From Patescibacteria group bacterium (GTDB taxonomy: Bacteria; Patescibacteriota; Minisyncoccia; JACQLN01), in contig JBBTRR010000001.1 in assembly GCA_038065095.1 (NCBI GenBank), forward strand, positions 113,546 through 177,545: a DNA stretch of 64,000 nucleotides, written 5' to 3'. Positions 1,547-56,745 of the stretch are shown one piece after another. A program made the position numbers and the translations under genes. A model generated the notes under the pieces. It made no database searches and was not told the origin of the DNA. It saw only the letters and a list, made by a program, of their open reading frames with translations. How positions within the stretch are numbered: the first letter of the stretch is position 1; each line of letters starts with the position of its first letter.

Positions 1547-1617
1547 CTATAGAGGATTAAGCCTCTATAGTATTAACTAAACATTTTAGCACGAGAATAC
1601 GATCGTATTCTCGTGCT
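1547..1617. terminator. Two tandem hairpins after ftsZ. The second is a member of the TACGATCGTA-core palindrome family and is followed by a T-tract.
   Basis: CTATAGAGG (1547-1555) pairs with CCTCTATAG (1562-1570). A perfect 30-bp palindrome AGCACGAGAA-TACGATCGTA-TTCTCGTGCT lies at 1588-1617, then ATTTTTG. Confidence 0.6.
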
Positions 1618-1660
1618 ATTTTTGTTGAAACAAAAATGTATTCGTGGTAGATTATTAATT

Positions 1661-6450: not shown

Positions 6451-7023
6451 ATGCTAATTGTAGTCACTGGTAATGGTAAGGGAAAGACCACGAGCGCACT
6501 TGGGCAGGCTTTAAGAGTGGTTGGCGAGGGCGGAAAGGCTGTAATGTATCAGTTTATAAAAGGGCCGTGGGTTTCGGGCGAGGATGTCCTAATCTCAAAA
6601 ATCAAATCTCAAAAATCAAAAATAAAAGACAATAAATTATTAGAGGGTCTGGAGAATTGGTATGATTTTGACATTATTAAGGGTGGCAAAGGTTTTGTTG
6701 GAATATTGGGCGATTCGTATCCAAAATCAGTTCACATCAAGGCGGCCGAAGAAACTTGGGGTGTTGCCAAAAAAGCCATAGAATCTAAAAAATACCAGTT
6801 AGTTGTTTTAGACGAAATTAATGTAGCTATAAAATTAGGCTTGTTAAAAATAAGCCCAGTATTTTCTTTTTTGAAAAAATATCGTGGAATTGTTAATATT
6901 ATGGTTACAGGGCGAGACGCCCACAATAAGCTTATAGAACTTGCTGATTTGGTTTCGGAGGTTAAAGAAATAAAGCACCCTTTTAATAAAGGTGTTTCAG
7001 CCAGAAAGGGAGTGGAGTACTAA
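6451..7023 (+). CDS. cobO: Cob(I)yrinic acid a,c-diamide / corrinoid adenosyltransferase (CobA/CobO/BtuR family)
   Basis: P-loop VVTGNGKGKTTSALGQALR..QFIKG and the C-terminal VLDEIN...TGR pattern are characteristic of CobA. The gene contains a 14-mer x2 tandem repeat at 6591-6618. Confidence 0.85.
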   Translation: MLIVVTGNGKGKTTSALGQALRVVGEGGKAVMYQFIKGPWVSGEDVLISKIKSQKSKIKDNKLLEGLENWYDFDIIKGGKGFVGILGDSYPKSVHIKAAEETWGVAKKAIESKKYQLVVLDEINVAIKLGLLKISPVFSFLKKYRGIVNIMVTGRDAHNKLIELADLVSEVKEIKHPFNKGVSARKGVEY

Positions 7024-7239: not shown

Positions 7240-7262
7240 TTTAATTTTAATTAGTAAAAAAT

Positions 7263-7292
7263 ATACCGAATCTACGATCGTAGATTCGGTAT
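7263..7292. repeat. 30-bp perfect palindrome of the TACGATCGTA-core family; bidirectional terminator-like
   Basis: ATACCGAATC-TACGATCGTA-GATTCGGTAT, located between convergent genes. Confidence 0.6.
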
Positions 7293-7337
7293 ATTCTGTC
7301 TTTAAATATAAATCTACTATCCTTTAATCCTTTCCAT

Positions 7338-9987: not shown

Positions 9988-10027
9988 AACGTATCCCGAG
10001 CTTACGATCGTAAGCTCGGGATACGTT
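9988..10027. repeat. 40-bp perfect palindrome of the TACGATCGTA-core family after comEC
   Basis: AACGTATCCCGAGCT-TACGATCGTA-AGCTCGGGATACGTT. Confidence 0.65.
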
Positions 10028-10526: not shown

Positions 10527-10829
10527 ATGGCTACAAAACCTAGTATAGAAAAGCTCAGAGAATTGGCAAGCAGAAGGAACGTGGCTTACGAAATTAGCAG
10601 GTGGTATTATGAACCATGTTCTTTGTATCAAGAAGTTCAAGAAATCCAGAAAATAGGATTTAAGTCTCAGGCGGCTAGGTGGTTAGAATCTATGACCTCT
10701 GCTGGTATGCAGTTCGGTACTGCTTCAAAAGAAGAAAGATTGAAAGAAGCCCAAAGTATGGCTGATCTTGCCGGTATACCTCTTAAAGAGATTACTGACG
10801 AGATAGGTCTATCGGGCGTGCTTTTGTAG
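10527..10829 (+). CDS. Hypothetical soluble protein (100 aa)
   Basis: AGGAGA RBS. This is the internal start MATKPSIEKLRELASRR... of the 135-aa ORF-track entry. Confidence 0.45.
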   Translation: MATKPSIEKLRELASRRNVAYEISRWYYEPCSLYQEVQEIQKIGFKSQAARWLESMTSAGMQFGTASKEERLKEAQSMADLAGIPLKEITDEIGLSGVLL

Positions 10830-11603: not shown

Positions 11604-11818
11604 AACTACATTACGATAAATCAGAAGATGCTTTTTATGTTCGGTTTGATGACAGCCCCTACGCTCAAAGCGATGAGATAGATGAAGGGGTTATTTTTGA
11701 CTACGACAAAAAAGGCAAAATAATTGGTATTGAAATTCTGGATGCCTCCAAAAAACTTTCGCCATCTTTTAGGGCGTCTTTGCGGCTTAAAGAGATTCCT
11801 GTTAGTGTGGGAGCGTAG
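11600..11818 (+). CDS. DUF2283-family protein (putative antitoxin partner)
   Basis: Product MKLHYDKSEDAFYVRFDDSPYAQSDEIDEGVIFDYDKKGKIIGIEILDASKKL matches the DUF2283 consensus (YDxExDxLYIxL...GxIxGIEIL). Confidence 0.55.
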   Translation: MKLHYDKSEDAFYVRFDDSPYAQSDEIDEGVIFDYDKKGKIIGIEILDASKKLSPSFRASLRLKEIPVSVGA

Positions 11819-14950: not shown

Positions 14951-14982
14951 TAGCACGAGCTTACGATCGTAAGCTCGTGCTA
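14951..14982. repeat. 32-bp perfect palindrome of the TACGATCGTA-core family; bidirectional terminator-like
   Basis: TAGCACGAGCT-TACGATCGTA-AGCTCGTGCTA. Confidence 0.65.
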
Positions 14983-14990
14983 AGTGCTTT

Positions 14991-17215: not shown

Positions 17216-17301
17216 ATACAACTAATTTTCAATTATCAATTTACAATTTTCAATCAAAAACCAGCAACCCCAGTTTAGCTCTTTTGGCTGAAATTATCAA
17301 T

Positions 17302-26148: not shown

Positions 26149-28545
26149 ATGAAAAAACCACGGGTTTTAATTTTTTCTTTGGCTTATTTCCCCTTAGTGG
26201 GAGGAGCCGAAATAGCCGTCAAAGAGATTACAGATCGCTTAGCTTCTCCGACGTCTGTCAGCCCCGACGTTACATCGGGGGAGCTCGGAGCCCCGACCCA
26301 TTCTGGCGTCGGGGTTGATTTTGATTTAGTAACTTTACGGTTTAATAAAAAACATTTACCAAAAGAAAAAATAGGTAATATAAATGTTTTTAGAGTTAAA
26401 GGAAGTAAATTATTTTTTCCTCTAAAATCATTATTTTTAGCTAGGAAATTACATAAACAAAATAATTATAAAGTAGTTTGGTCTATTATGACGGCTTACG
26501 CTGGTTTTGGTGTCTTATTTTTTAAGATATTAAATCCAAAAGTTAAGTTTTTATTGACACTTCAAGAAGGTGATTCAGAAAAACATATATTAAAACGTGT
26601 CGGAATATTTTATCCATTATGGAAGTATATATTTAAAAAAGCTGATTACATTCAAGTTATAAGTAATTATTTAGCCGATTTCGCCAAAAAATACGGAGCA
26701 AAATGCCCTATAGAAGTTGTGCCAAACGGGGTCAACTTAGACAAATTTAAAACCCCCTACTTCGCTAAAGCTACGCAGGGCAAGCAAAATTCAAATACCA
26801 AAACTATCATTACTACGTCTAGGTTGGTTTATAAGAATGGGGTGGATATTCTTATCAGATCAATGGCCATGCTAAAAGCTAAAAGTCCCGATAGCAAAGC
26901 TATCGAGGATCCTCGACAAGGTCGGGACTATAAACTAATTATTGTTGGTGATGGTCCAGATAGATCAAAATTAGAACAATTAACTAAGGATTTATCAGTT
27001 GATGATATAGTGCAATTTGTCGGACATGTTGATCCCAATGAAATTCCAAATTATTTATATAAAGCCGATGTTTTTGTACGGGCTTCTCGTTCAGAAGGTT
27101 TAGGTAATTCTTTTTTAGAAGCTATGGCGGCGGGTTTGCCGGTTATAGGAACTTCAGTAGGTGGAATAGTTGATTTTTTAAAAGACGGGGAAACAGGTTT
27201 TTTGGTTGAACCAGAAAATATAGAAAGTTTAACTAATAAAATAGATTGGGTTTTAAGTAATCAAGATATTTCAAAAGAAGTTGCTTTAAATGGTAAAAAT
27301 CTAATTTTTAAAAATTATTCTTGGGATGGTATATCCGAAAAAATTGGAAAAATTTTTAAAAAAAATATTGTAAATATAAGATTACTTTTAGCTACAGGTA
27401 TATATCCTCCAGATATTGGCGGGCCAGCAACATATGCCAAACTGTTAGTAGATGAATTACCTAAGAGGGGAGTTTCTATTGATGTTGTTTTTTACGGTGA
27501 TAAAGGTGTTTCAAGATCAATTCCAAAAGGAATTAGGCACATAGTTTTCTTTTTTAAATGCTTTTTTAAAGCAATTAAAAGTGATGTTGTTTTGGTTCAG
27601 GATACTATAAGCGCTGGTTTGCCGGCACTACTAGCCTCTAGATTGGCTCGTAGGAGGTTTTTAATACGCGTACCAGGGGATTACGTTTGGGAACAGTCCG
27701 TTCAACGTTTTGGGGTTAAGGACTCAATAGATGATTTTCAAAATAAAAAATATGGTTTTAAGGTGGAGTTCTTAAGAAGTATCCAAAAGTTTGTAGTTAG
27801 TAATGCTGATGTTGTTATAACACCAAGTAATTATTTTAAAGATCTAGTCAAAACTTGGGTCAAAGATAAGAATAAAGTTATTACTATATATAATGGAATA
27901 GATATAGCGACAAGCGACAAGCGACAAGCGACAAGAAATTCTAAAACAATTGTCTCGGTTGGTAGGCTAGTACCGTGGAAAGGTTTTGATATGGTTATAG
28001 AAATGATGATAGATTTACCCGATTGGAAACTTGTTATAATTGGAGATGGGCCAGAGTATAATAATCTCAAATCTCAAATTTCCCTACTTCGCCCACCCTC
28101 CGCTCAAGGCTACGACGTGGCACAGCAAGGCTCCGAAGGGCAAGCAAATTACCCCTCAATAAAACTCGGGGCAGGCAAATTACAAGATCGAGTTATACTC
28201 ACAGGTGCAATTTTGAGAGAAAAAGTTTTGGAATATCTGGCTAATTCAGAAGTATTTGTTTTAAATACTTCGTTTGAAAGTTTTTCATACCAAATAGTTG
28301 AGGCTATGGCTATGGGTATTCCCGTGGTTACTACAAACATAGGTAATATTTCGGAGATAGTTAGAGATGGAATTGATGGAGTTTTGGTTGAGCCTAACGA
28401 TAAAGATGGCTATATAAATGTTATTAAAAAAATTAATAATAATTTTGAGTTTAGAAATAGTTTAATAAAAAGTGCTATAGAAAGATCTAAGGATTTTTCT
28501 ATAGAAAGAACTTTAAATAGCTTAGTATTAGTTTTAAAAAGATGA
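26149..28545 (+). CDS. Tandem-fused double GT4 glycosyltransferase (two GT-B/GT4 modules in one ~800-aa chain)
   Basis: Module 1: VGRLVYKNGVD...IIVGDGPDRSKLEQL...EGLGNSFLEAMAAGLPVIGT. Module 2: VGRLVPWKGFD...VIIGDGPEYNNLKSQI...ESFSYQIVEAMAMGIPVVTT. It contains two GC-rich in-frame insertions and heptamer repeats at 27906 and 28064. Confidence 0.8.
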   Translation: MKKPRVLIFSLAYFPLVGGAEIAVKEITDRLASPTSVSPDVTSGELGAPTHSGVGVDFDLVTLRFNKKHLPKEKIGNINVFRVKGSKLFFPLKSLFLARKLHKQNNYKVVWSIMTAYAGFGVLFFKILNPKVKFLLTLQEGDSEKHILKRVGIFYPLWKYIFKKADYIQVISNYLADFAKKYGAKCPIEVVPNGVNLDKFKTPYFAKATQGKQNSNTKTIITTSRLVYKNGVDILIRSMAMLKAKSPDSKAIEDPRQGRDYKLIIVGDGPDRSKLEQLTKDLSVDDIVQFVGHVDPNEIPNYLYKADVFVRASRSEGLGNSFLEAMAAGLPVIGTSVGGIVDFLKDGETGFLVEPENIESLTNKIDWVLSNQDISKEVALNGKNLIFKNYSWDGISEKIGKIFKKNIVNIRLLLATGIYPPDIGGPATYAKLLVDELPKRGVSIDVVFYGDKGVSRSIPKGIRHIVFFFKCFFKAIKSDVVLVQDTISAGLPALLASRLARRRFLIRVPGDYVWEQSVQRFGVKDSIDDFQNKKYGFKVEFLRSIQKFVVSNADVVITPSNYFKDLVKTWVKDKNKVITIYNGIDIATSDKRQATRNSKTIVSVGRLVPWKGFDMVIEMMIDLPDWKLVIIGDGPEYNNLKSQISLLRPPSAQGYDVAQQGSEGQANYPSIKLGAGKLQDRVILTGAILREKVLEYLANSEVFVLNTSFESFSYQIVEAMAMGIPVVTTNIGNISEIVRDGIDGVLVEPNDKDGYINVIKKINNNFEFRNSLIKSAIERSKDFSIERTLNSLVLVLKR

Positions 28546-29332: not shown

Positions 29333-30427
29333 ATGAAAGTTTTAATGTTATCTACGGATGAGAATATTTTTAAAGAGGGTTCAGAAGTTTCCTCTCGGAT
29401 ATTAGACTACGGTAAGTTAGTAGAAGAATTACATGTAGTTGTAAAAAGTTCTCAAAAAATTAGCAAAATTGTGGGGAATGTTTTTTTATACTCCACGAAT
29501 AGTTTTGGTTTGTTTTATTTTAAAAAAGCTATAAATATTTCTAAAAAGATAGTAAGCCAAAGTGGTCGTTGGCTGATAACAGCTCAAGATCCTTTCGAAA
29601 CAGGTTTGGTTGGTTATTTAGTTAAAAGGAAATTTAATTTAACACTACAAATTCAAATTCATACAGATTTTTTAAGTTCATATTTTAAAAAAGAGTCTAT
29701 TAAAAATAAAATTAGAGTTTTTATCGCGAAAAAAATAATAAAAAAAGCTGATGGCATCAGGGTTGTTTCCGAACGAATAAAAATTTCCATAATTGTAAAT
29801 TGTAAATTAAAAATTGAAAATTCTGCGATAGCAGTGTTACCTATTTTTATAGATACCCAAAAAATAAAGAACAGTCCTATTAGTACGGATTTACACAAAA
29901 AATATCCAAATAAATTTATTATTCTTATGGCTTCTAGGCTAACCAAAGAAAAAAATATTGGGTTAGCAATAAAAGCTATGTTTGAAGTAGTCAAAACAAA
30001 TAGTCGGGCACTTCTTTTAATAGTTGGTCATGGTCCAGAATTCAATAATCTTAAGTTACAAGTTACAAGTTACAAGTTACAAGATTTTGTTGTTTTTGAA
30101 GATTGGTCTAATGATCTATCTTCATACTACAAAACTGCTGATTTATTTTTATTAACGTCCAATTATGAAGGTTATGGTATGACAATTATAGAGGCGTCTG
30201 CTGCTGGTCTGCCAGTTGTAATGACTGATGTTGGGGTTTCGGCTGGTATGGTGTCGGCTGTTGGTGATTATAAAGAAATTTCACGTAACATAGTTAATCT
30301 AATTGAAAATCCGAAAAATAAGGAGAGTGTATTAAAAAACCAAGAAAGTTTGCTTAATACATATAAAACGAAAGAAGATTACTTAGATCAATTAAAAGCT
30401 TTGTGGTCTTCTTGTTTATTTTCATAA
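29333..30427 (+). CDS. GT4 family glycosyltransferase
   Basis: SRLTKEKNIGLAI...LLIVGHGPEFNNLK...NYEGYGMTIIEASAAGLPVVMTDVG. Contains (GTTACAA)x4 at 30055-30082. Confidence 0.8.
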   Translation: MKVLMLSTDENIFKEGSEVSSRILDYGKLVEELHVVVKSSQKISKIVGNVFLYSTNSFGLFYFKKAINISKKIVSQSGRWLITAQDPFETGLVGYLVKRKFNLTLQIQIHTDFLSSYFKKESIKNKIRVFIAKKIIKKADGIRVVSERIKISIIVNCKLKIENSAIAVLPIFIDTQKIKNSPISTDLHKKYPNKFIILMASRLTKEKNIGLAIKAMFEVVKTNSRALLLIVGHGPEFNNLKLQVTSYKLQDFVVFEDWSNDLSSYYKTADLFLLTSNYEGYGMTIIEASAAGLPVVMTDVGVSAGMVSAVGDYKEISRNIVNLIENPKNKESVLKNQESLLNTYKTKEDYLDQLKALWSSCLFS

Positions 30428-37695: not shown

Positions 37696-38757
37696 ATGAA
37701 AATTTGCTATTTAAATAATGACCTAAATAATAAAACCGGTTCAGGTCGATTTTGTTTAGCTCTTGTACAATCATTGAATAAACTAATTCCTGCTTTTAAT
37801 TATAAGGTAGTAACCTTGGAGAGTATATCTTTAAAAAAGCCTTTTGGACTATTTTATTTTTTAATACGTTTAAGAAAAATACTAAAAGATTTTGATATTG
37901 TTCACGCTTTGGATGGCTGGCCCCATGGTTTTTTAGCTACATTGGCGACAATTGGATTAAAGAAAAAAGTGATTATAACTTTGATTGGAACTGGGTCAAT
38001 ACAACCAATGTATCATTTCCCTCATAAATTAATTATGAAGTGGGTTTATAAACGAGCCGATAGGTTGGTAGCTGTTAGTCAAAATACAAAAAAAGAAATC
38101 CTTAAAATTATTCCCAGTTTAAAAATTGAAGTTATAAATCATGGAGTAGACTTTGATAAATATCAAACATTAAATATTAAAAATAAAAATGATGCAGAAA
38201 TCCAGAGACTTAAACCTTATATTTTAAGCGTGGGAACATTAAAAAAAAGAAAGGGTTATGAATATTCCGTTCGGGCTTTTGCAGAAGTTGCAGAAAAATT
38301 TCCAGAATTAAAATATGTAATTGTAGGACAAGGCCATGAAGAAGAAAATCTCAAATCTCAAATCTCAAAACTAAAAATAGAAGATAAAATTATTTTTTTA
38401 AATTATTTGTCGGAGGAATTTTTGGTGGCTTTGTATCACAATGCTGAATTGTTTATTTTATTATCTCAAGATAATGGCAAAGACATAGAAGGTTTCGGTT
38501 TGGTTTTTTTGGAAGCTGCCTCTTGTGGTTTACCGATTGTAGCTACGTTAGAGACTGGAGCGGCAGATGCTGTTAGTGATGGTAAAAACGGTATATTGGT
38601 TCCAACAAGAGACAGTCATAAAGCTACTCAAGCTATAATTAAGATATTATTAAATTCCAATTTAAAAAATTCTTTTTCAGAATCGTCTTTAGAATTTGCT
38701 AAATCCATGAATTGGGAAAAGGTAGCTGATTCCTACTTTAAAATATATAAATTTTAA
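37696..38757 (+). CDS. GT4 family glycosyltransferase
   Basis: VGTLKKRKGYEY...VIVGQGHEEENLKSQISKLKI...EGFGLVFLEAASCGLPIVAT. Contains (AAATCTC)x3 at 38346-38366. Confidence 0.8.
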   Translation: MKICYLNNDLNNKTGSGRFCLALVQSLNKLIPAFNYKVVTLESISLKKPFGLFYFLIRLRKILKDFDIVHALDGWPHGFLATLATIGLKKKVIITLIGTGSIQPMYHFPHKLIMKWVYKRADRLVAVSQNTKKEILKIIPSLKIEVINHGVDFDKYQTLNIKNKNDAEIQRLKPYILSVGTLKKRKGYEYSVRAFAEVAEKFPELKYVIVGQGHEEENLKSQISKLKIEDKIIFLNYLSEEFLVALYHNAELFILLSQDNGKDIEGFGLVFLEAASCGLPIVATLETGAADAVSDGKNGILVPTRDSHKATQAIIKILLNSNLKNSFSESSLEFAKSMNWEKVADSYFKIYKF

Positions 38758-55948: not shown

Positions 55949-56745
55949 GTAAAAATATTTTGTTAAAATTTAAAAAGATTCCATTAAAAATTGTTGATGA
56001 AAAACCTTTATTTATTCCAGAAGAAGATTTTAAAAATATTGAAGAGGGTCTACATTCTGGTTTTTTAAATAGATTTAAGACTTTTCTCAAGAGATTTCCA
56101 CAAATTTATTCTTTTATTTTTTATTTTATAGCCCCAGCAATTTTTCTTGGCCGAGAACCAAAATCAATATTTAGCGTTCTTAATAAAGATAGTTTGATTA
56201 TAGATTTGGGCTCTGGTAATCGCAGACTTAGCAAGAATATTGTAAATGTAGATATCCATCCATGGTCAGAAGTAGATATTTTGGCCGATGCCCACGATTT
56301 GCCTTTTGAAGATAACTCTGTTGATGGAGTTGTTCTTTCTTGGGTGATAGAGCATATGGCTGACCCTTTAAAAGTAGTATCGGAAATACATAGGGTCCTT
56401 AAAAAGGGTGGCTATTTTTATCTCTCAACCAATTTTATAACTCCCTACCATCCATCTCCAAAGGATTATTATCGCTGGACCGCTGAAGGTTTAGGGGTAT
56501 TGTTAAAAGATTTTAATGTTTTAGAACTAAAACCTCACGTTGGTCCAACCTGTGCTCTCTTATCTGTTTTGCAAGAATGGTTGTCTTTGGTTTTATCTTT
56601 TAATATAAAAATATTAAAAGATTTTTTATGGATATTTTTTGTGGTAGTAACCTCACCATTAAAATTTTTGGATCTAATCTTTATTCATTATAAATCAGCG
56701 GATATTATAACCGCAGGCTTTTATGTTATTGCCAAAAAAGGATAA
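55945..56745 (+). CDS. SAM-dependent methyltransferase (Methyltransf_11-like) with hydrophobic segments
   Basis: IIDLGSGNRRL and DGVVLSWVIEHMADPLKVVSEIHRVLKKGGYFY. Confidence 0.65.
   Translation: MSKNILLKFKKIPLKIVDEKPLFIPEEDFKNIEEGLHSGFLNRFKTFLKRFPQIYSFIFYFIAPAIFLGREPKSIFSVLNKDSLIIDLGSGNRRLSKNIVNVDIHPWSEVDILADAHDLPFEDNSVDGVVLSWVIEHMADPLKVVSEIHRVLKKGGYFYLSTNFITPYHPSPKDYYRWTAEGLGVLLKDFNVLELKPHVGPTCALLSVLQEWLSLVLSFNIKILKDFLWIFFVVVTSPLKFLDLIFIHYKSADIITAGFYVIAKKG

What the first reader, a model, noticed from the sequence alone, without database searches (positions are those of the whole stretch)
26237..28190. GC-rich in-frame insertions inside the double GT4 gene (RPE-like selfish insertions?)
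Two segments interrupt conserved GT4 blocks while keeping the reading frame. One is 26237-26320, encoding SPTSVSPDVTSGELGAPTHSGVGVD. The other is 28081-28190, encoding LLRPPSAQGYDVAQQGSEGQANYPSIKLGAG.

By eye both are far more GC-rich than the AT-rich host gene. Both contain short inverted repeats (CCCCGAC...GTCGGGG) and a direct repeat CAAGGCT x2.

The second insertion begins exactly at the AATCTCA heptamer array.

This resembles in-frame palindromic element insertions such as Rickettsia RPEs, or in-frame minigene-like indels, more than ordinary divergence.
Basis: seen in the sequence. Interest (0 to 1): 0.55.

Follow-up and report, generated by a model that had tools for sequence, protein, structure and literature searches.

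The report
Tiny in-frame hairpin repeats in gene
The GC-rich stretches in this glycosyltransferase gene are copies of tiny hairpin-forming DNA repeats inserted without breaking the reading frame; one type, exactly 30 bases long, also occurs in genomes of many bacterial phyla and in viral contigs, and I found no description of it.

Summary
Both segments are real in-frame insertions in a 798-aa double GT4 glycosyltransferase of a Patescibacteria genome. They are the two most GC-rich 60-nt spots in the 64 kb. They are absent from 24 of 25 other orthologues aligned, including one at 70% identity. AlphaFold2 models them as disordered loops.

They are copies of dispersed hairpin repeats.
- **Insert 2 (28082-28175):** a 30-nt unit, [yCCnn][CTTCGCCAAGGCTCCG][nnGGr][CAAG], interrupted in its own loop by a diverged second unit and followed by a decayed hairpin piece.
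- **Sister unit:** an intact copy lies at 26755-26784.
- **Insert 1 (26242-26316):** carries a different 24-nt hairpin, also found between genes in another groundwater genome.

The 30-nt unit has at least 120 exact-pattern hits across many phyla (about 0.3 expected) and 37 stretches in viral contigs. Its stem covaries. About half the copies lie in genes, on both strands and almost only in stop-free frames. There is no target duplication. It prefers GCT^YCG. A Bradyrhizobium isolate has an exact 30-nt filled/empty pair.

Best reading: selfish, non-autonomous mini-elements analogous to Rickettsia RPEs but not members of that family. The mobilising enzyme is unknown. No paper or Rfam family matched.

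The parts
26149..28545 (+). Host gene: a 798-aa fusion of two GT4 glycosyltransferase modules. The architecture is conserved in Patescibacteria, where orthologues are typically 730-780 aa.
   Evidence: Pfam Glycos_transf_1 and Glyco_transf_4, each matched twice. 952 homologues found. AlphaFold2 mean pLDDT 83 with two GT-B folds.
26242..26316 (+). Insert 1: 75 nt encoding ASPTSVSPDVTSGELGAPTHSGVGV, where orthologues have 12 nt (GGSF or GDSF). It is a composite of GC-rich hairpins.
   Evidence: Alignments. Folding z = -3.6 and -4.0. pLDDT below 50 at residues 34-52. L003 has a shorter 30-nt version with a single hairpin at the same site.
26262..26280 (.). First hairpin of insert 1: CCCCGA-CGTTACA-TCGGGG. 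It lies in the 42 nt that the window has in addition to the L003 version.
   Evidence: Read directly from the sequence. MFE structure. Comparison with L003.
26291..26314 (.). 24-nt hairpin of a second repeat family: CCCCGAC-CCATTCTGGC-GTCGGGG.
   Evidence: The identical 26-mer (with the flanking TT) lies between genes in L176, between an acyl-CoA synthetase gene and leuS, on another Hainich contig. L171 has a near-identical copy that shares 6 further flanking nt.
26755..26784 (+). Intact 30-nt hairpin unit, CCCTA CTTCGCTAAAGCTACG CAGGG CAAG. It is read in unit frame 0 as PYFAKATQGK.
   Evidence: Covariance model R1: 49.9 bits, E = 3e-8. nhmmer E = 2.6e-9. pLDDT below 50 at residues 207-212. 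Orthologues carry heptamer arrays at this site instead.
26885..26928 (.). Third GC-rich palindromic segment. GTCCCGA...TCGGGAC encloses GATAGC-AAA-GCTATC and TCGAGGATCCTCGA, and exactly 30 nt lie between the outer arms. It encodes SPDSKAIEDPRQGRD. It contains a core-like fragment, GCAAAGCTATCG, and a CAAG. Its family assignment is uncertain.
   Evidence: 36-nt gap in L002, which has a (TTACAAG)x4 array here. Folding z = -4.4. pLDDT below 50 at residues 249-257.
27906..27935 (+). Heptamer array (AGCGACA)x4.3 in a variable loop, encoding ATSDKRQAT. It is context for the finding, not a hairpin unit.
   Evidence: TRF. L002 has (GAGACAA)x4 at the same place.
28063..28079 (+). Heptamer array (AATCTCA)x2.4, encoding NLKSQI, immediately 5' of insert 2.
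   Evidence: TRF. A paralogous GT4 gene at 38346 reads NLKSQIS|KLKIEDK with nothing inserted.
28082..28092 (+). Insert 2, outer 30-nt unit, 5' part: CCCTA CTTCGC.
   Evidence: Deleting 28093-28125 restores a full-length unit at 26.3 bits, E = 7.6e-7. The native sequence gives only a 3' half-match at E = 0.32. The restored unit is 27/30 identical to the intact unit at L003:4683-4712.
28093..28125 (+). Insert 2, inner diverged unit (33 nt) sitting in the loop of the outer unit: CCACC CTCCGCTCAAGGCTACG ACGTGG CACAG.
   Evidence: The core at 28098-28114 matches CTTCGCCAAGGCTACG with 1 substitution and 1 insertion. It is one of only 2 such loci in the window, against a shuffle mean of 0.2. The 21-nt internal repeat found by TRF at 28105-28147 reflects the two cores.
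28126..28144 (+). Insert 2, outer unit, 3' part: CAAGGCTCCG AAGGG CAAG.
   Evidence: The outer unit is read in unit frame 2. That frame is open only because this core variant has CAA where the commoner core has TAA (read directly from the sequence).
28145..28175 (+). Insert 2, third piece: CAAATTA followed by CCCCT-CAATAAAACTC-GGGG-CAGG. It is a probable decayed unit lying between two copies of GCAAATTAC. Its assignment is uncertain.
   Evidence: The direct repeat GGCArGCAAATTAC at 28139 and 28170 is read from the sequence. The segment gives no significant model hit. pLDDT below 50 across residues 650-675.

Best explanation
The GC-rich segments are in-frame insertions of very short, hairpin-forming, non-autonomous selfish DNA repeats. 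They sit in surface loops of a functional double GT4 glycosyltransferase.

Anatomy in the window:
- Insert 2 is a nest. A 30-nt unit, made of a 5-nt stem arm yCCnn, a 16-nt conserved core CTTCGC(T/C)AA(A/G)GCTNCG, the complementary arm nnGGr and a CAAG tail, was itself hit in its loop by a second unit. A further decayed hairpin piece lies next to it.
- An intact sister unit lies 1.3 kb upstream in the same gene.
- Insert 1 is built from a second family, a 24-nt hairpin CCCCGAC-CCATTCTGGC-GTCGGGG, plus a local 42-nt expansion.

Shown here: the 30-nt unit is one discrete DNA module. It occurs in many bacterial phyla and in viral contigs. It inserts without target duplication and prefers GCT^YCG. 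The unit contains such a site itself, which explains the self-nesting.

Why it survives inside genes:
- Its length is a multiple of 3.
- Four of its six frames are open, or five for the CAAGG core variant.
- Selection keeps only copies that land in tolerant loops.

Inferred, not shown: the unit is copied in trans by an enzyme that recognises the hairpin and its conserved loop in single-stranded DNA. This would resemble IS200/IS605-type or REP/RAYT-type HUH transposition, which also needs no target duplication and inserts next to a short target. Hairpin loops and slippage-prone heptamer arrays would be preferred targets because they expose single strands. I do not think the inserts serve the glycosyltransferase.
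For: **The segments are insertions.**
- They are absent from 24 of 25 other orthologues aligned, including one at 70% identity.
- A paralogue reads straight through site 5.
- The four GC-rich segments are the only stretches with pLDDT below 50 in an otherwise confident model.

**The similarity is at the DNA level.**
- The same motif is read in different frames within one gene: PYFAKATQGK versus SLLR...EGQ.
- It sits at three different sites of the orthologous gene in three lineages.

**The unit is a family.**
About 0.3 hits are expected by chance. Host GC ranges from 0.29 to 0.70.
- In viral contigs there are 14 stretches with the TAAAG core and 23 with the CAAGG core.

**The unit has sharp boundaries and a covarying stem.**
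- Conservation begins at -5 and ends at the G of CAAG.
- 83.9% of stem cells are paired, against 64.3% in shuffles. The covariation score is 0.49 against 0.175, reached by 0 of 500 shuffles. Slid registers score 0.18 or less.

**It behaves like a mobile element.**
- Bradyrhizobium betae (L060) has an exact 30-nt filled/empty pair in adjacent REP-like hairpins.
- No target duplication of 4 nt or more was found in 168 units.
- GCT lies immediately 5' in 16.7% of units, against 1.6% background.
- Nested copies occur in L017, L056, L064 and L085.
- The window's outer unit is restored by a single 33-nt deletion, E = 7.6e-7.

**Genic copies are translated and filtered by selection.**
- 52% of units lie in ORFs, against 83% of random positions. 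Both strands and all four open frames are used.
- Of 63 clearly genic units, 58 are in open frames and 5 in closed frames. About 21 closed would be expected by chance.
- Host genes include a class I aminoacyl-tRNA synthetase, LigA, topoisomerase I and MutL.

**Insert 1.** Its hairpin is found between genes in another genome.
Against: - No mobilising enzyme was found. No transposase-like family recurs within about 4 kb of the units.
- Copy number per genome is unknown and appears modest. Only about 10 extra diverged copies were found in 716 kb of unit-bearing loci.
- In the 64-kb window all copies lie in this one gene.
- A single 5-bp hairpin with a 16-nt loop does not look like the ends of known IS200/IS605 elements, and neither REP tag (GTAG or CGTC) is conserved.
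- The inner unit of insert 2 and the third piece give only weak model support.
- The site-3 segment and most of insert 1 cannot be assigned to a family.
- Whether the insert-1 hairpin shared by the window and L003 is inherited or a parallel insertion is unresolved.
- Identity of the core across phyla could reflect a conserved function rather than mobility.
Confidence: 0.8

Rival explanations
1. The segments are lineage-specific loop expansions selected at the protein level, for example flexible linkers or interaction peptides of the glycosyltransferase. No mobile DNA would be involved.
For: - They lie in loops that vary in every orthologue and are modelled as disordered.
- The frame is preserved.
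- Peptides such as FAKAT.GK recur.
Against: - The shared sequence is DNA read in four or more different frames and on both strands.
- About half of all copies lie between genes.
- The same 30-mer occurs in unrelated proteins and phyla and inside a REP hairpin in Bradyrhizobium.
- The stem covaries at the nucleotide level.
Confidence: 0.04
2. The hairpins are functional RNA elements in the mRNA, such as stabilisers, processing sites or translation pause sites. Their conserved loop would be a binding site for a widespread protein, and they would be kept for that function rather than being selfish.
For: - A conserved 16-nt loop with a covarying stem is the classic signature of a functional structured element.
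- In the phage locus L138, units sit just upstream of structural genes and in the gene orientation.
- The polarity of loop relative to tail is fixed: 0 flopped against 14 canonical in viral contigs, and 77 of 77 in the held loci.
Against: - Genic copies show no orientation preference: 37 sense and 28 antisense.
- No Rfam family matches.
- Units insert into each other and into other hairpins.
- The sequence flanking the units is unrelated from copy to copy.
Confidence: 0.1
3. The segments arose locally, by slippage, duplication or template switching at heptamer arrays and by gene conversion between loops of paralogous GT4 genes. No element would have arrived from elsewhere.
For: - Heptamer arrays fill the same loops in the orthologues.
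- Insert 2 has an internal 21-nt repeat and a 14-nt direct repeat.
- The window's insert 1 looks like the L003 version plus a 42-nt internal expansion with reiterated CCCCGAC.
- All window copies lie in one gene.
Against: - It cannot explain identical units in other genes, genomes, phyla and viruses.
- It cannot explain the exact 30-nt filled/empty pair.
- The unit's tail does not seed the arrays: CAAG is found in 10 of 232 heptamer consensus units, against 9.3 expected.
- Local processes probably did reshape the inserts after they arrived.
Confidence: 0.05
4. The segments are removed after transcription or translation, as tiny introns or intein-like pieces. The mature enzyme would then lack them.
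For: - Patescibacteria are known for insertions in rRNA genes (my own knowledge, not tested here).
- The inserts are structured.
Against: - Genic units avoid the stop-containing frames: 58 open and 5 closed, where about 21 closed are expected if the frame did not matter.
- At 30-93 nt they are far too short for inteins or for group I or II introns.
- No intron family is found in Rfam.
Confidence: 0.01

Closest known systems
Rickettsia palindromic elements (RPEs; Ogata et al. 2000, as summarised in PMC10969869 and PMC3733652)
   Same: Both are selfish palindromic repeats found inserted in frame inside unrelated, apparently functional protein-coding genes. Both add a peptide at tolerated positions, and both also occur between genes.
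   Different: RPEs are about 150 bp, fall into some ten families and are confined to Rickettsia. The unit here is 30 nt (24 nt for the second family). It has a 5-bp covarying stem and a 16-nt invariant loop, and it occurs in many phyla and in viral contigs. No sequence comparison with RPEs was possible with these tools.
REP elements / REPINs mobilised by RAYT transposases (GTAG- and CGTC-tagged superfamilies, PMC3733652)
   Same: - Both are imperfect palindromes of 20-40 nt.
- Both are sometimes found inside genes, including DNA replication and repair genes.
- Both are sometimes inserted within other small palindromes.
- Both are thought to move as single-stranded hairpins without target duplication.
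   Different: - Neither tag is conserved at an end of the unit. GTAG appears only in the variant with A at core position 14, and then inside the loop. CGTC is absent.
- The loop, not the stem, is the conserved part.
- About half the copies are genic.
- The same sequence is shared across phyla, whereas REP families are mostly specific to a species or genus.
- No RAYT-like gene was found nearby.
IS200/IS605-family single-strand transposition and its miniature derivatives (PATEs; PMC6006769 for the HUH superfamily)
   Same: - Hairpin-dependent.
- No terminal inverted repeats.
- No target-site duplication.
- Insertion immediately 3' of a short specific target; here GCT is enriched 10-fold.
   Different: Known elements carry two different subterminal hairpins (left and right ends) and are far longer. 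Here a single 30-nt hairpin is the whole element. No TnpA gene was found, and strand bias relative to replication was not testable.
Classical bacterial MITEs (Correia/NEMIS, ERIC, RUP, Nezha)
   Same: Both are short, non-autonomous and dispersed, and both are occasionally intragenic with an open frame.
   Different: MITEs are 70-300 bp with terminal inverted repeats of 15-30 bp, and they make target-site duplications. None of this holds here.
Heptanucleotide tandem repeats (cyanobacterial STRR; TAACTGA repeats of Beggiatoaceae, PMC4679880; excess of heptameric repeats in bacteria noted in PMC4692102)
   Same: Short arrays of 7-nt units are abundant in the same genomes, and units lie next to them more often than chance predicts.
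   Different: Those described arrays are intergenic. Here many lie inside genes, in four-copy arrays that preserve the frame. They are neighbours or targets of the hairpin units, not the same element.

Membership tests
Rickettsia palindromic elements (RPE) | Length of about 100-150 bp | tested here: not met
   The units are 30 nt and 24 nt. Whole inserts are 75 and 93 nt and are composites.
Rickettsia palindromic elements (RPE) | In-frame insertion into functional ORFs | tested here: met
Rickettsia palindromic elements (RPE) | Sequence similarity to families RPE-1 to RPE-10, and restriction to Rickettsia | not tested
   No RPE sequences were available in the tools. The hosts here are Patescibacteria and many other phyla, so taxonomic restriction is not met.
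REP / REPIN (GTAG- or CGTC-tagged) | Imperfect palindrome of 20-40 nt | tested here: met
   30 nt with a 5-bp stem.
REP / REPIN (GTAG- or CGTC-tagged) | Conserved unpaired GTAG or CGTC tetranucleotide at one end | tested here: not met
   On the reverse strand, GTAG exists only when core position 14 is A (69 of 123 units), and it lies inside the loop. There is no CGTC. The ends are yCC... and ...CAAG.
REP / REPIN (GTAG- or CGTC-tagged) | Association with a RAYT (Y1 HUH) gene in the genome | tested here: inconclusive
   No recurrent transposase-like ORF lies within about 4 kb of units in roughly 150 loci. Whole genomes could not be examined.
REP / REPIN (GTAG- or CGTC-tagged) | Predominantly extragenic, with a high copy number per genome | tested here: not met
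   52% of units lie in ORFs of 150 codons or more. Density is low in the DNA held. True copy number per genome was not testable.
MITE | Terminal inverted repeats of 15-30 bp, target-site duplication, length 70-300 bp | tested here: not met
   No target duplication of 4 nt or more in 168 units. The unit is 30 nt with a 5-bp stem.
IS200/IS605-derived miniature element | No target duplication, and insertion 3' of a short specific target | tested here: met
   GCT is present 5' in 16.7% of units against 1.6% background, with no duplication. Exact filled/empty pair.
IS200/IS605-derived miniature element | Two distinct subterminal hairpins (left and right ends) and a cognate TnpA | tested here: not met
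   The unit has a single hairpin. No TnpA-like family was found nearby.
IS200/IS605-derived miniature element | Orientation bias relative to the replication fork (lagging-strand template) | not testable with these tools
   Only fragments of 8 kb or less per genome were available.
GT4 glycosyltransferase (host gene) | Glyco_transf_4 N-terminal domain plus Glycos_transf_1 C-terminal domain, and a GT-B fold | tested here: met
   Pfam matches for both halves. AlphaFold2 model with alternating beta/alpha Rossmann-like domains.
Rfam structured RNA families | A match to any curated covariance model | tested here: not met
   Only two sub-threshold chance hits elsewhere in the gene.

The most novel reading that the evidence does not exclude
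The 30-nt unit is an undescribed mobile element that occurs across the bacterial domain and in phages, and it would be about as small as a transposable unit can be. It is a single hairpin with an invariant 16-nt loop and a CAAG tail. It is copied by a still unidentified, widely distributed enzyme. It targets GCT^YCG in exposed single strands, including its own loop. Because it is exactly ten codons long and mostly free of stop codons, it writes a 10-residue cassette (such as ...FAKATxxK..., ...SLKLRRT... or ...RRSFSEGG...) into proteins as conserved as tRNA synthetases, DNA ligase, topoisomerase I and MutL. In gene-dense, small genomes such as those of Patescibacteria, protein loops would be its main habitat.
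Probability: 0.4. Interest if true: 0.85.

Novelty: new variant of a known kind. Interest (0 to 1): 0.72.

Why it matters
If this holds, selfish DNA can be far smaller than the elements usually looked for. A 30-nt hairpin is enough to spread across phyla and into viruses, and to live inside essential genes.

- **Annotation and alignment.** These cassettes would explain many puzzling GC-rich "low-complexity" loops and short spurious ORFs in metagenome-assembled genomes.
- **Protein evolution.** The units are a ready source of new surface loops.
- **Transposition mechanism.** The conserved loop, the GCT^YCG target and the lack of target duplication point to an enzyme that can now be sought by co-occurrence analysis.
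- **Strain tracking.** Presence or absence of a unit at a site is a discrete marker within populations, for example in the Hainich aquifer.

For the glycosyltransferase itself the inserts are probably neutral passengers.

Tried and rejected
1. **Repeat search within the window only.** The shared 11-mers were not significant individually. The signal appeared only after comparison with orthologue DNA.
2. **Flip/flop idea.** One unit-like neighbour in phage locus L138 has a loop 12/16 identical to the reverse complement of the canonical loop. But the flopped pattern has 0 exact hits in IMG/VR, against 14 canonical, and all 77 perfect-stem instances are canonical. Rejected as a general feature.
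3. **Stem created from the target, or a 5-nt target duplication.** No duplication of 4 nt or more was found, and the Bradyrhizobium pair shows that the whole 30 nt is the insertion. Rejected.
4. **Heptamer arrays derived from the unit's GGrCAAG tail.** CAAG occurs in 10 of 232 heptamer consensus units, against 9.3 expected. Rejected.
5. **The 30-33-nt size mode of heptamer arrays as a sign of a shared mechanism.** It is better explained by frame-preserving growth in steps of three copies.
6. **Search for a partner transposase near units.** All-against-all clustering of 3854 ORFs found only housekeeping and phage structural families.
7. **Rfam, PLSDB plasmids and GenBank phages.** No matches.
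8. **Literature.** No paper in the library holds the core sequence, and nothing links Patescibacteria to heptanucleotide or in-frame palindromic repeats.
9. **Metagenome scan for the insert-1 hairpin.** Of 14 hits, 3 re-find the window and L003 loci (L174, L177, and L176 is the independent copy). Nine are chance matches in high-GC coding DNA or unclear, including an unrelated ADPFERRG motif. Only L176 and L171 are convincing independent copies.
10. **Membership in GTAG/CGTC REPs, MITEs and RPEs.** Defining features were tested and not met; see the membership table.
11. **Assigning the site-3 segment (26885-26928) and the third piece of insert 2 to the 30-nt family.** Only fragmentary similarity was found. 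Left open.


Full report
**1. The observation**

The window is AT-rich (GC 0.346) and comes from a Patescibacteria (CPR) genome. The nearest database protein, P0001, is named [quoted passage not shown]. The ORF at 26149-28545 (+) encodes 798 aa with two complete GT4 modules.

With a 60-nt window, the two flagged segments are the two most GC-rich places in the entire 64 kb: maxima of 0.70 at 26222-26336 and 0.67 at 28066-28178, with flanks at 0.28-0.31.

In an alignment with 26 homologues, both segments occur only in the window and in P0001. P0001 is the same strain apart from one recombination patch. P0002, at 70% identity and from a syntenic contig of the same aquifer, lacks both, as do the other 23.

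A paralogous GT4 gene at 38.3 kb reads NLKSQIS|KLKIEDK straight through the position of insert 2. The inserts are also present in independent assemblies, L001 and L174. So these are real in-frame insertions: insert 1 is 26242-26316 and insert 2 is 28082-28175.

**2. There are more of them, and they sit where orthologues have heptamer arrays**

I compared the DNA of five lineages codon by codon: the window, L002, L003, L005 and L006. The variable loops of this protein are filled in each lineage by one of two things.
- Tandem arrays of 7-nt units, such as TTACAAG, YTCCAAG, GAGACAA, AATCTCA, CCCTAWA and TTACTAA.
- GC-rich palindromic segments.

The window has two further GC-rich segments:
- 26755-26784, encoding PYFAKATQGK.
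- 26885-26928, where GTCCCGA...TCGGGAC encloses two smaller palindromes.

Folding gave mixed results.

| Segment | z-score, + strand | z-score, - strand |
|---|---|---|
| Insert 1 | -3.6 | -4.0 |
| 26885-26928 | -4.4 | -3.9 |
| Insert 2 | +0.6 | -1.2 |
| 26755-26784 region | +0.6 | not run |

AlphaFold2 gives a confident two-module GT-B model with mean pLDDT 83. The only stretches below pLDDT 50 are residues 34-52, 207-212, 249-257 and 650-675. These are exactly the four GC-rich segments, and all lie between secondary-structure elements.

**3. A 30-nt unit**

The segment at 26760-26784 (CTTCGCTAAAGCTACGCAGGGCAAG) recurs in two other places:
- in the interdomain linker of the L003 orthologue, with 3 changes;
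- in a different loop of the L006 orthologue, with 5 changes.

That is three copies in about 139 kb, where shuffles give 0.1. Insert 2 shares its two ends, CCCTACTTCGC and GGGCAAGCAAA, but reads them in another frame.

I scanned one genome per species of GTDB with CTTCGCTAAAGCTNCGNNGGNCAAG, which has 21 specified bases. About 0.3 hits are expected in 596 Gb on both strands. The hosts span many groups, with locus GC from 0.29 to 0.70:
- Patescibacteria (many classes)
- Planctomycetota, Verrucomicrobiota, Kiritimatiellia and Omnitrophota
- Bacteroidota
- Gamma- and Alphaproteobacteria, including the cultured isolate Bradyrhizobium betae Opo-243
- Acidobacteriota, Nitrospirota, Thermodesulfobacteriota, Spirochaetia, Dependentiae, Bdellovibrionales and Armatimonadota

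Lining up the hits shows a sharply bounded module. It has five positions yCCnn, the 16-nt core CTTCGCTAAAGCT(A/T)CG, five positions nnGGr and then CAAG, which makes 30 nt. Beyond these limits the flanks are unrelated.

The two 5-nt arms are complementary and covary:
- 83.9% of cells are paired, against 64.3 ± 1.4% in shuffles.
- The covariation score is 0.49 against 0.175, reached by 0 of 500 shuffles.
- All slid registers score 0.18 or less.
- Three of the five pairs switch between C-G, G-C, U-A and A-U.

A second core variant, CTTCGCCAAGGCTNCG, exists. An intact copy lies at L003:4683-4712, and there are 23 stretches in viral contigs.

**4. Parsing the window inserts with this knowledge**

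The covariance model finds one intact unit in the window, at 26755-26784 (49.9 bits, E = 3e-8).

Insert 2 begins with CCCTA CTTCGC, and 33 nt later continues CAAGGCTCCG AAGGG CAAG. Deleting the single block 28093-28125 restores a full-length unit: 26.3 bits and E = 7.6e-7, against a 3' half-match at E = 0.32 in the native sequence. The restored unit is 27/30 identical to the intact L003 copy.

The excised 33 nt are themselves unit-like: CCACC CTCCGCTCAAGGCTACG ACGTGG CACAG. Their core differs from the variant core by one substitution and one insertion. Only two such loci exist in the window, against 0.2 in shuffles. So insert 2 is a unit nested within a unit.

A further 31 nt follow (28145-28175). 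They contain a CCCC...GGGG hairpin and a CAGG tail, and lie between two copies of GCAAATTAC. I regard this as a decayed copy, but it has no statistical support.

The same nesting, left halves followed by right halves, is seen in L017, L056, L064 (three deep) and L085.

The intact unit is read in frame 0, and the outer unit of insert 2 in frame 2. Frame 2 is open only because the CAAGG variant has CAA where the common core has TAA.

**5. Insert 1 belongs to another hairpin family**

The window and L003 share, at the same site, the hairpin CCGAnCCATTCnnGCGTCGGGG. The window has an extra 42 nt with reiterated CCCCGAC.

A metagenome scan with that pattern gave 14 hits:
- Three re-find loci already known: L174 (the window strain) and L177 (the L003/L004 locus); L176 is counted below.
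- Nine are chance matches in high-GC coding DNA or are unclear.
- L176, a 115-kb contig from another Hainich well, carries the identical 26-mer CCCCGACCCATTCTGGCGTCGGGGTT. It lies between an acyl-CoA synthetase gene and leuS, next to a terminator.
- L171 carries a near-identical copy that shares six additional flanking bases.

So this 24-nt hairpin (7 + 10 + 7) is also dispersed, and it is found both inside and outside genes.

**6. Behaviour of the 30-nt unit**

- **Location.** 52% of units lie within ORFs of 150 codons or more, against 83% of random positions in the same loci. All four stop-free frames on both strands are used: 26, 11, 15 and 13.
- **Selection on frame.** I removed each unit in silico and asked which frame the restored gene uses. 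This gave 58 units in open frames and 5 in stop-containing frames, where about 21 would be expected if frame were irrelevant. Genic copies are therefore translated and filtered by selection, not spliced out.
- **Host genes.** These include a class I aminoacyl-tRNA synthetase, HsdM, the adenylation domain of LigA, topoisomerase I, a P-type ATPase and MutL.
- **Insertion footprint.** In Bradyrhizobium betae two adjacent inverted REP-like hairpins differ by exactly the 30 nt: GATTGCT^TCGCTGCGCTCGCAAT against the same sequence with TCCGCCTTCGCTAAAGCTTCGGCGGACAAG at ^.
- **Target.** Among 168 units there is no target duplication of 4 nt or more. GCT lies immediately 5' in 16.7% (background 1.6%), and CCG, TCG or CCC lies immediately 3'. 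The unit's own loop contains GCT^WCG, which explains the self-nesting.
- **Neighbours.** 19 of 124 units lie within 30 nt of a tandem array of period 5-9, mostly period 7. Random positions give 4.1, with a maximum of 13 in 200 trials. Window insert 2 follows the same pattern.
- **Polarity.** The orientation of the loop relative to the tail is fixed.
- **Viruses.** Viral contigs carry units. In L138, a phage head-morphogenesis module, they lie just upstream of genes, and decayed copies lie within the portal gene.
- **Absent from.** PLSDB plasmids, GenBank phages and Rfam.
- **No enzyme nearby.** No transposase-like family recurs near the units.

**7. Mechanism**

*Shown:* these are discrete DNA modules that have been inserted. 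They are shared across very distant genomes, and inside genes they are kept only in open frames and in tolerant loops.

*Inferred:* they are non-autonomous and are copied in trans. The following point to recognition of a hairpin in single-stranded DNA by an HUH-type enzyme, in the manner of IS200/IS605 or REP/RAYT:
- a single hairpin with a conserved loop;
- a fixed 3' tetranucleotide;
- insertion next to a short target without duplication;
- a liking for hairpin loops and slippage-prone arrays.

I hold this last step at about 0.3. The enzyme is unidentified, the architecture (one 5-bp stem with a 16-nt loop) differs from the ends of known elements, and strand bias could not be tested. A functional RNA or protein-binding role for the conserved loop cannot be excluded (about 0.1).

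**8. Comparison with what is known**

By analogy this is the RPE phenomenon, selfish DNA inside protein-coding genes. It fails the defining features of RPEs (size, host range), of GTAG/CGTC REPs (no tag; the loop rather than the stem is conserved; half the copies are genic) and of MITEs (no terminal inverted repeats or target duplication).

It shares the absence of duplication and the specific 5' target with IS200/IS605 elements. It lacks their two-hairpin structure and a nearby TnpA gene.

No paper in the searchable library contains the core sequence. Searches for related phenomena in Patescibacteria found nothing. This library misses most subscription journals, so prior description cannot be ruled out.

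**9. Verdict**

The inserts are ordinary passengers as far as the glycosyltransferase is concerned. The 30-nt unit they reveal is unusual in four ways: it is very small, exactly ten codons long, conserved across phyla and viruses, and self-nesting.

I rate it a new variant of a known kind (selfish palindromic mini-repeats), with interest 0.72.

The main uncertainties are:
- copy number per genome;
- the mobilising enzyme;
- whether the insert-1 hairpin shared with L003 is inherited or parallel;
- the family assignment of the decayed pieces.

Noticed in passing
window 6591-6627, 17224-17254, 27906-27935, 28063-28079, 29791-29822, 30053-30083, 38157-38181, 38346-38369, 56105-56127; also L002, L005, L006: Heptanucleotide tandem arrays are the commonest tandem repeat here and in all unit-bearing loci. 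TRF finds 283 period-7 arrays, against 73 of period 6 and 125 of period 8. Perfect period-7 runs number 111, against 42, 11 and 9 for periods 6, 8 and 9. Many lie inside genes, and different orthologues carry different heptamers in the same protein loop. Lengths cluster at about 30-33 nt (four copies) and faintly at about 50-55 nt (seven copies), as expected if arrays in genes grow only in frame-preserving steps of three copies.
   Followed up: partly
window 1587-1621, 7262-7296, 9992-10026, 14951-14985: Four intergenic perfect palindromes lie just after gene ends. They share an invariant centre, TACGATCGTA, and have covarying outer arms (for example AGCACGAGAA/TTCTCGTGCT and ATCCCGAGCT/AGCTCGGGAT). 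This is a separate, terminator-like hairpin family in this genome.
   Followed up: partly
L138 10495-10524 (IMG/VR phage contig): Directly after a canonical unit lies a unit-like 30-mer with the same stem and CAAG tail. Its loop, CATAGCATTTGCGACG, is 12/16 identical to the reverse complement of the canonical loop. Exact flopped units were not found elsewhere (0 hits).
   Followed up: yes
window 26395-26495 versus L001 (gene alignment columns 250-345): The window and the otherwise identical strain L001 differ only in a patch of about 95 nt that is dense with substitutions. It looks like a short recombination tract between strains.
   Followed up: no
L005 about 11700-11760 (orthologue P0010, after DDFQ): A 57-nt GC-rich in-frame insert is flanked by 10-nt direct repeats, CACCCGAATA. 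Its interior has inverted ends, GCGCGCCTTCG...CGAAAGCGCC. It may be another small element, this one with a duplication-like footprint.
   Followed up: no
L003 about 10760-10800 (orthologue P0014, site 3); P0003 and P0004 at the protein level: A perfect 14-bp inverted repeat, GACATCGGATGTCC-ACTT-GGACATCCGATGTC, lies in frame and encodes KTSDVHLDIRCLK. It sits at the same loop where the window has its 44-nt palindromic segment. So unrelated palindromes occupy the same loop in different lineages.
   Followed up: no
L014, L010, L019, L090, L051, L101: In other genomes, in-frame 30-nt units sit inside a class I aminoacyl-tRNA synthetase (just before the ...QDEDTLDTWFSS motif), HsdM, the adenylation domain of NAD-dependent DNA ligase, topoisomerase I, a P-type ATPase and the MutL linker.
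   Followed up: partly
window 6576-6640: A third AATCTCA-type array, AATCTCAAAAATCAAATCTCAAAAATCAAAAATAAAAG, lies inside an ORF. It appears to add a lysine- and serine-rich peptide (ISKIKSQKSKIKDNK) to an otherwise GC-richer gene.
   Followed up: no
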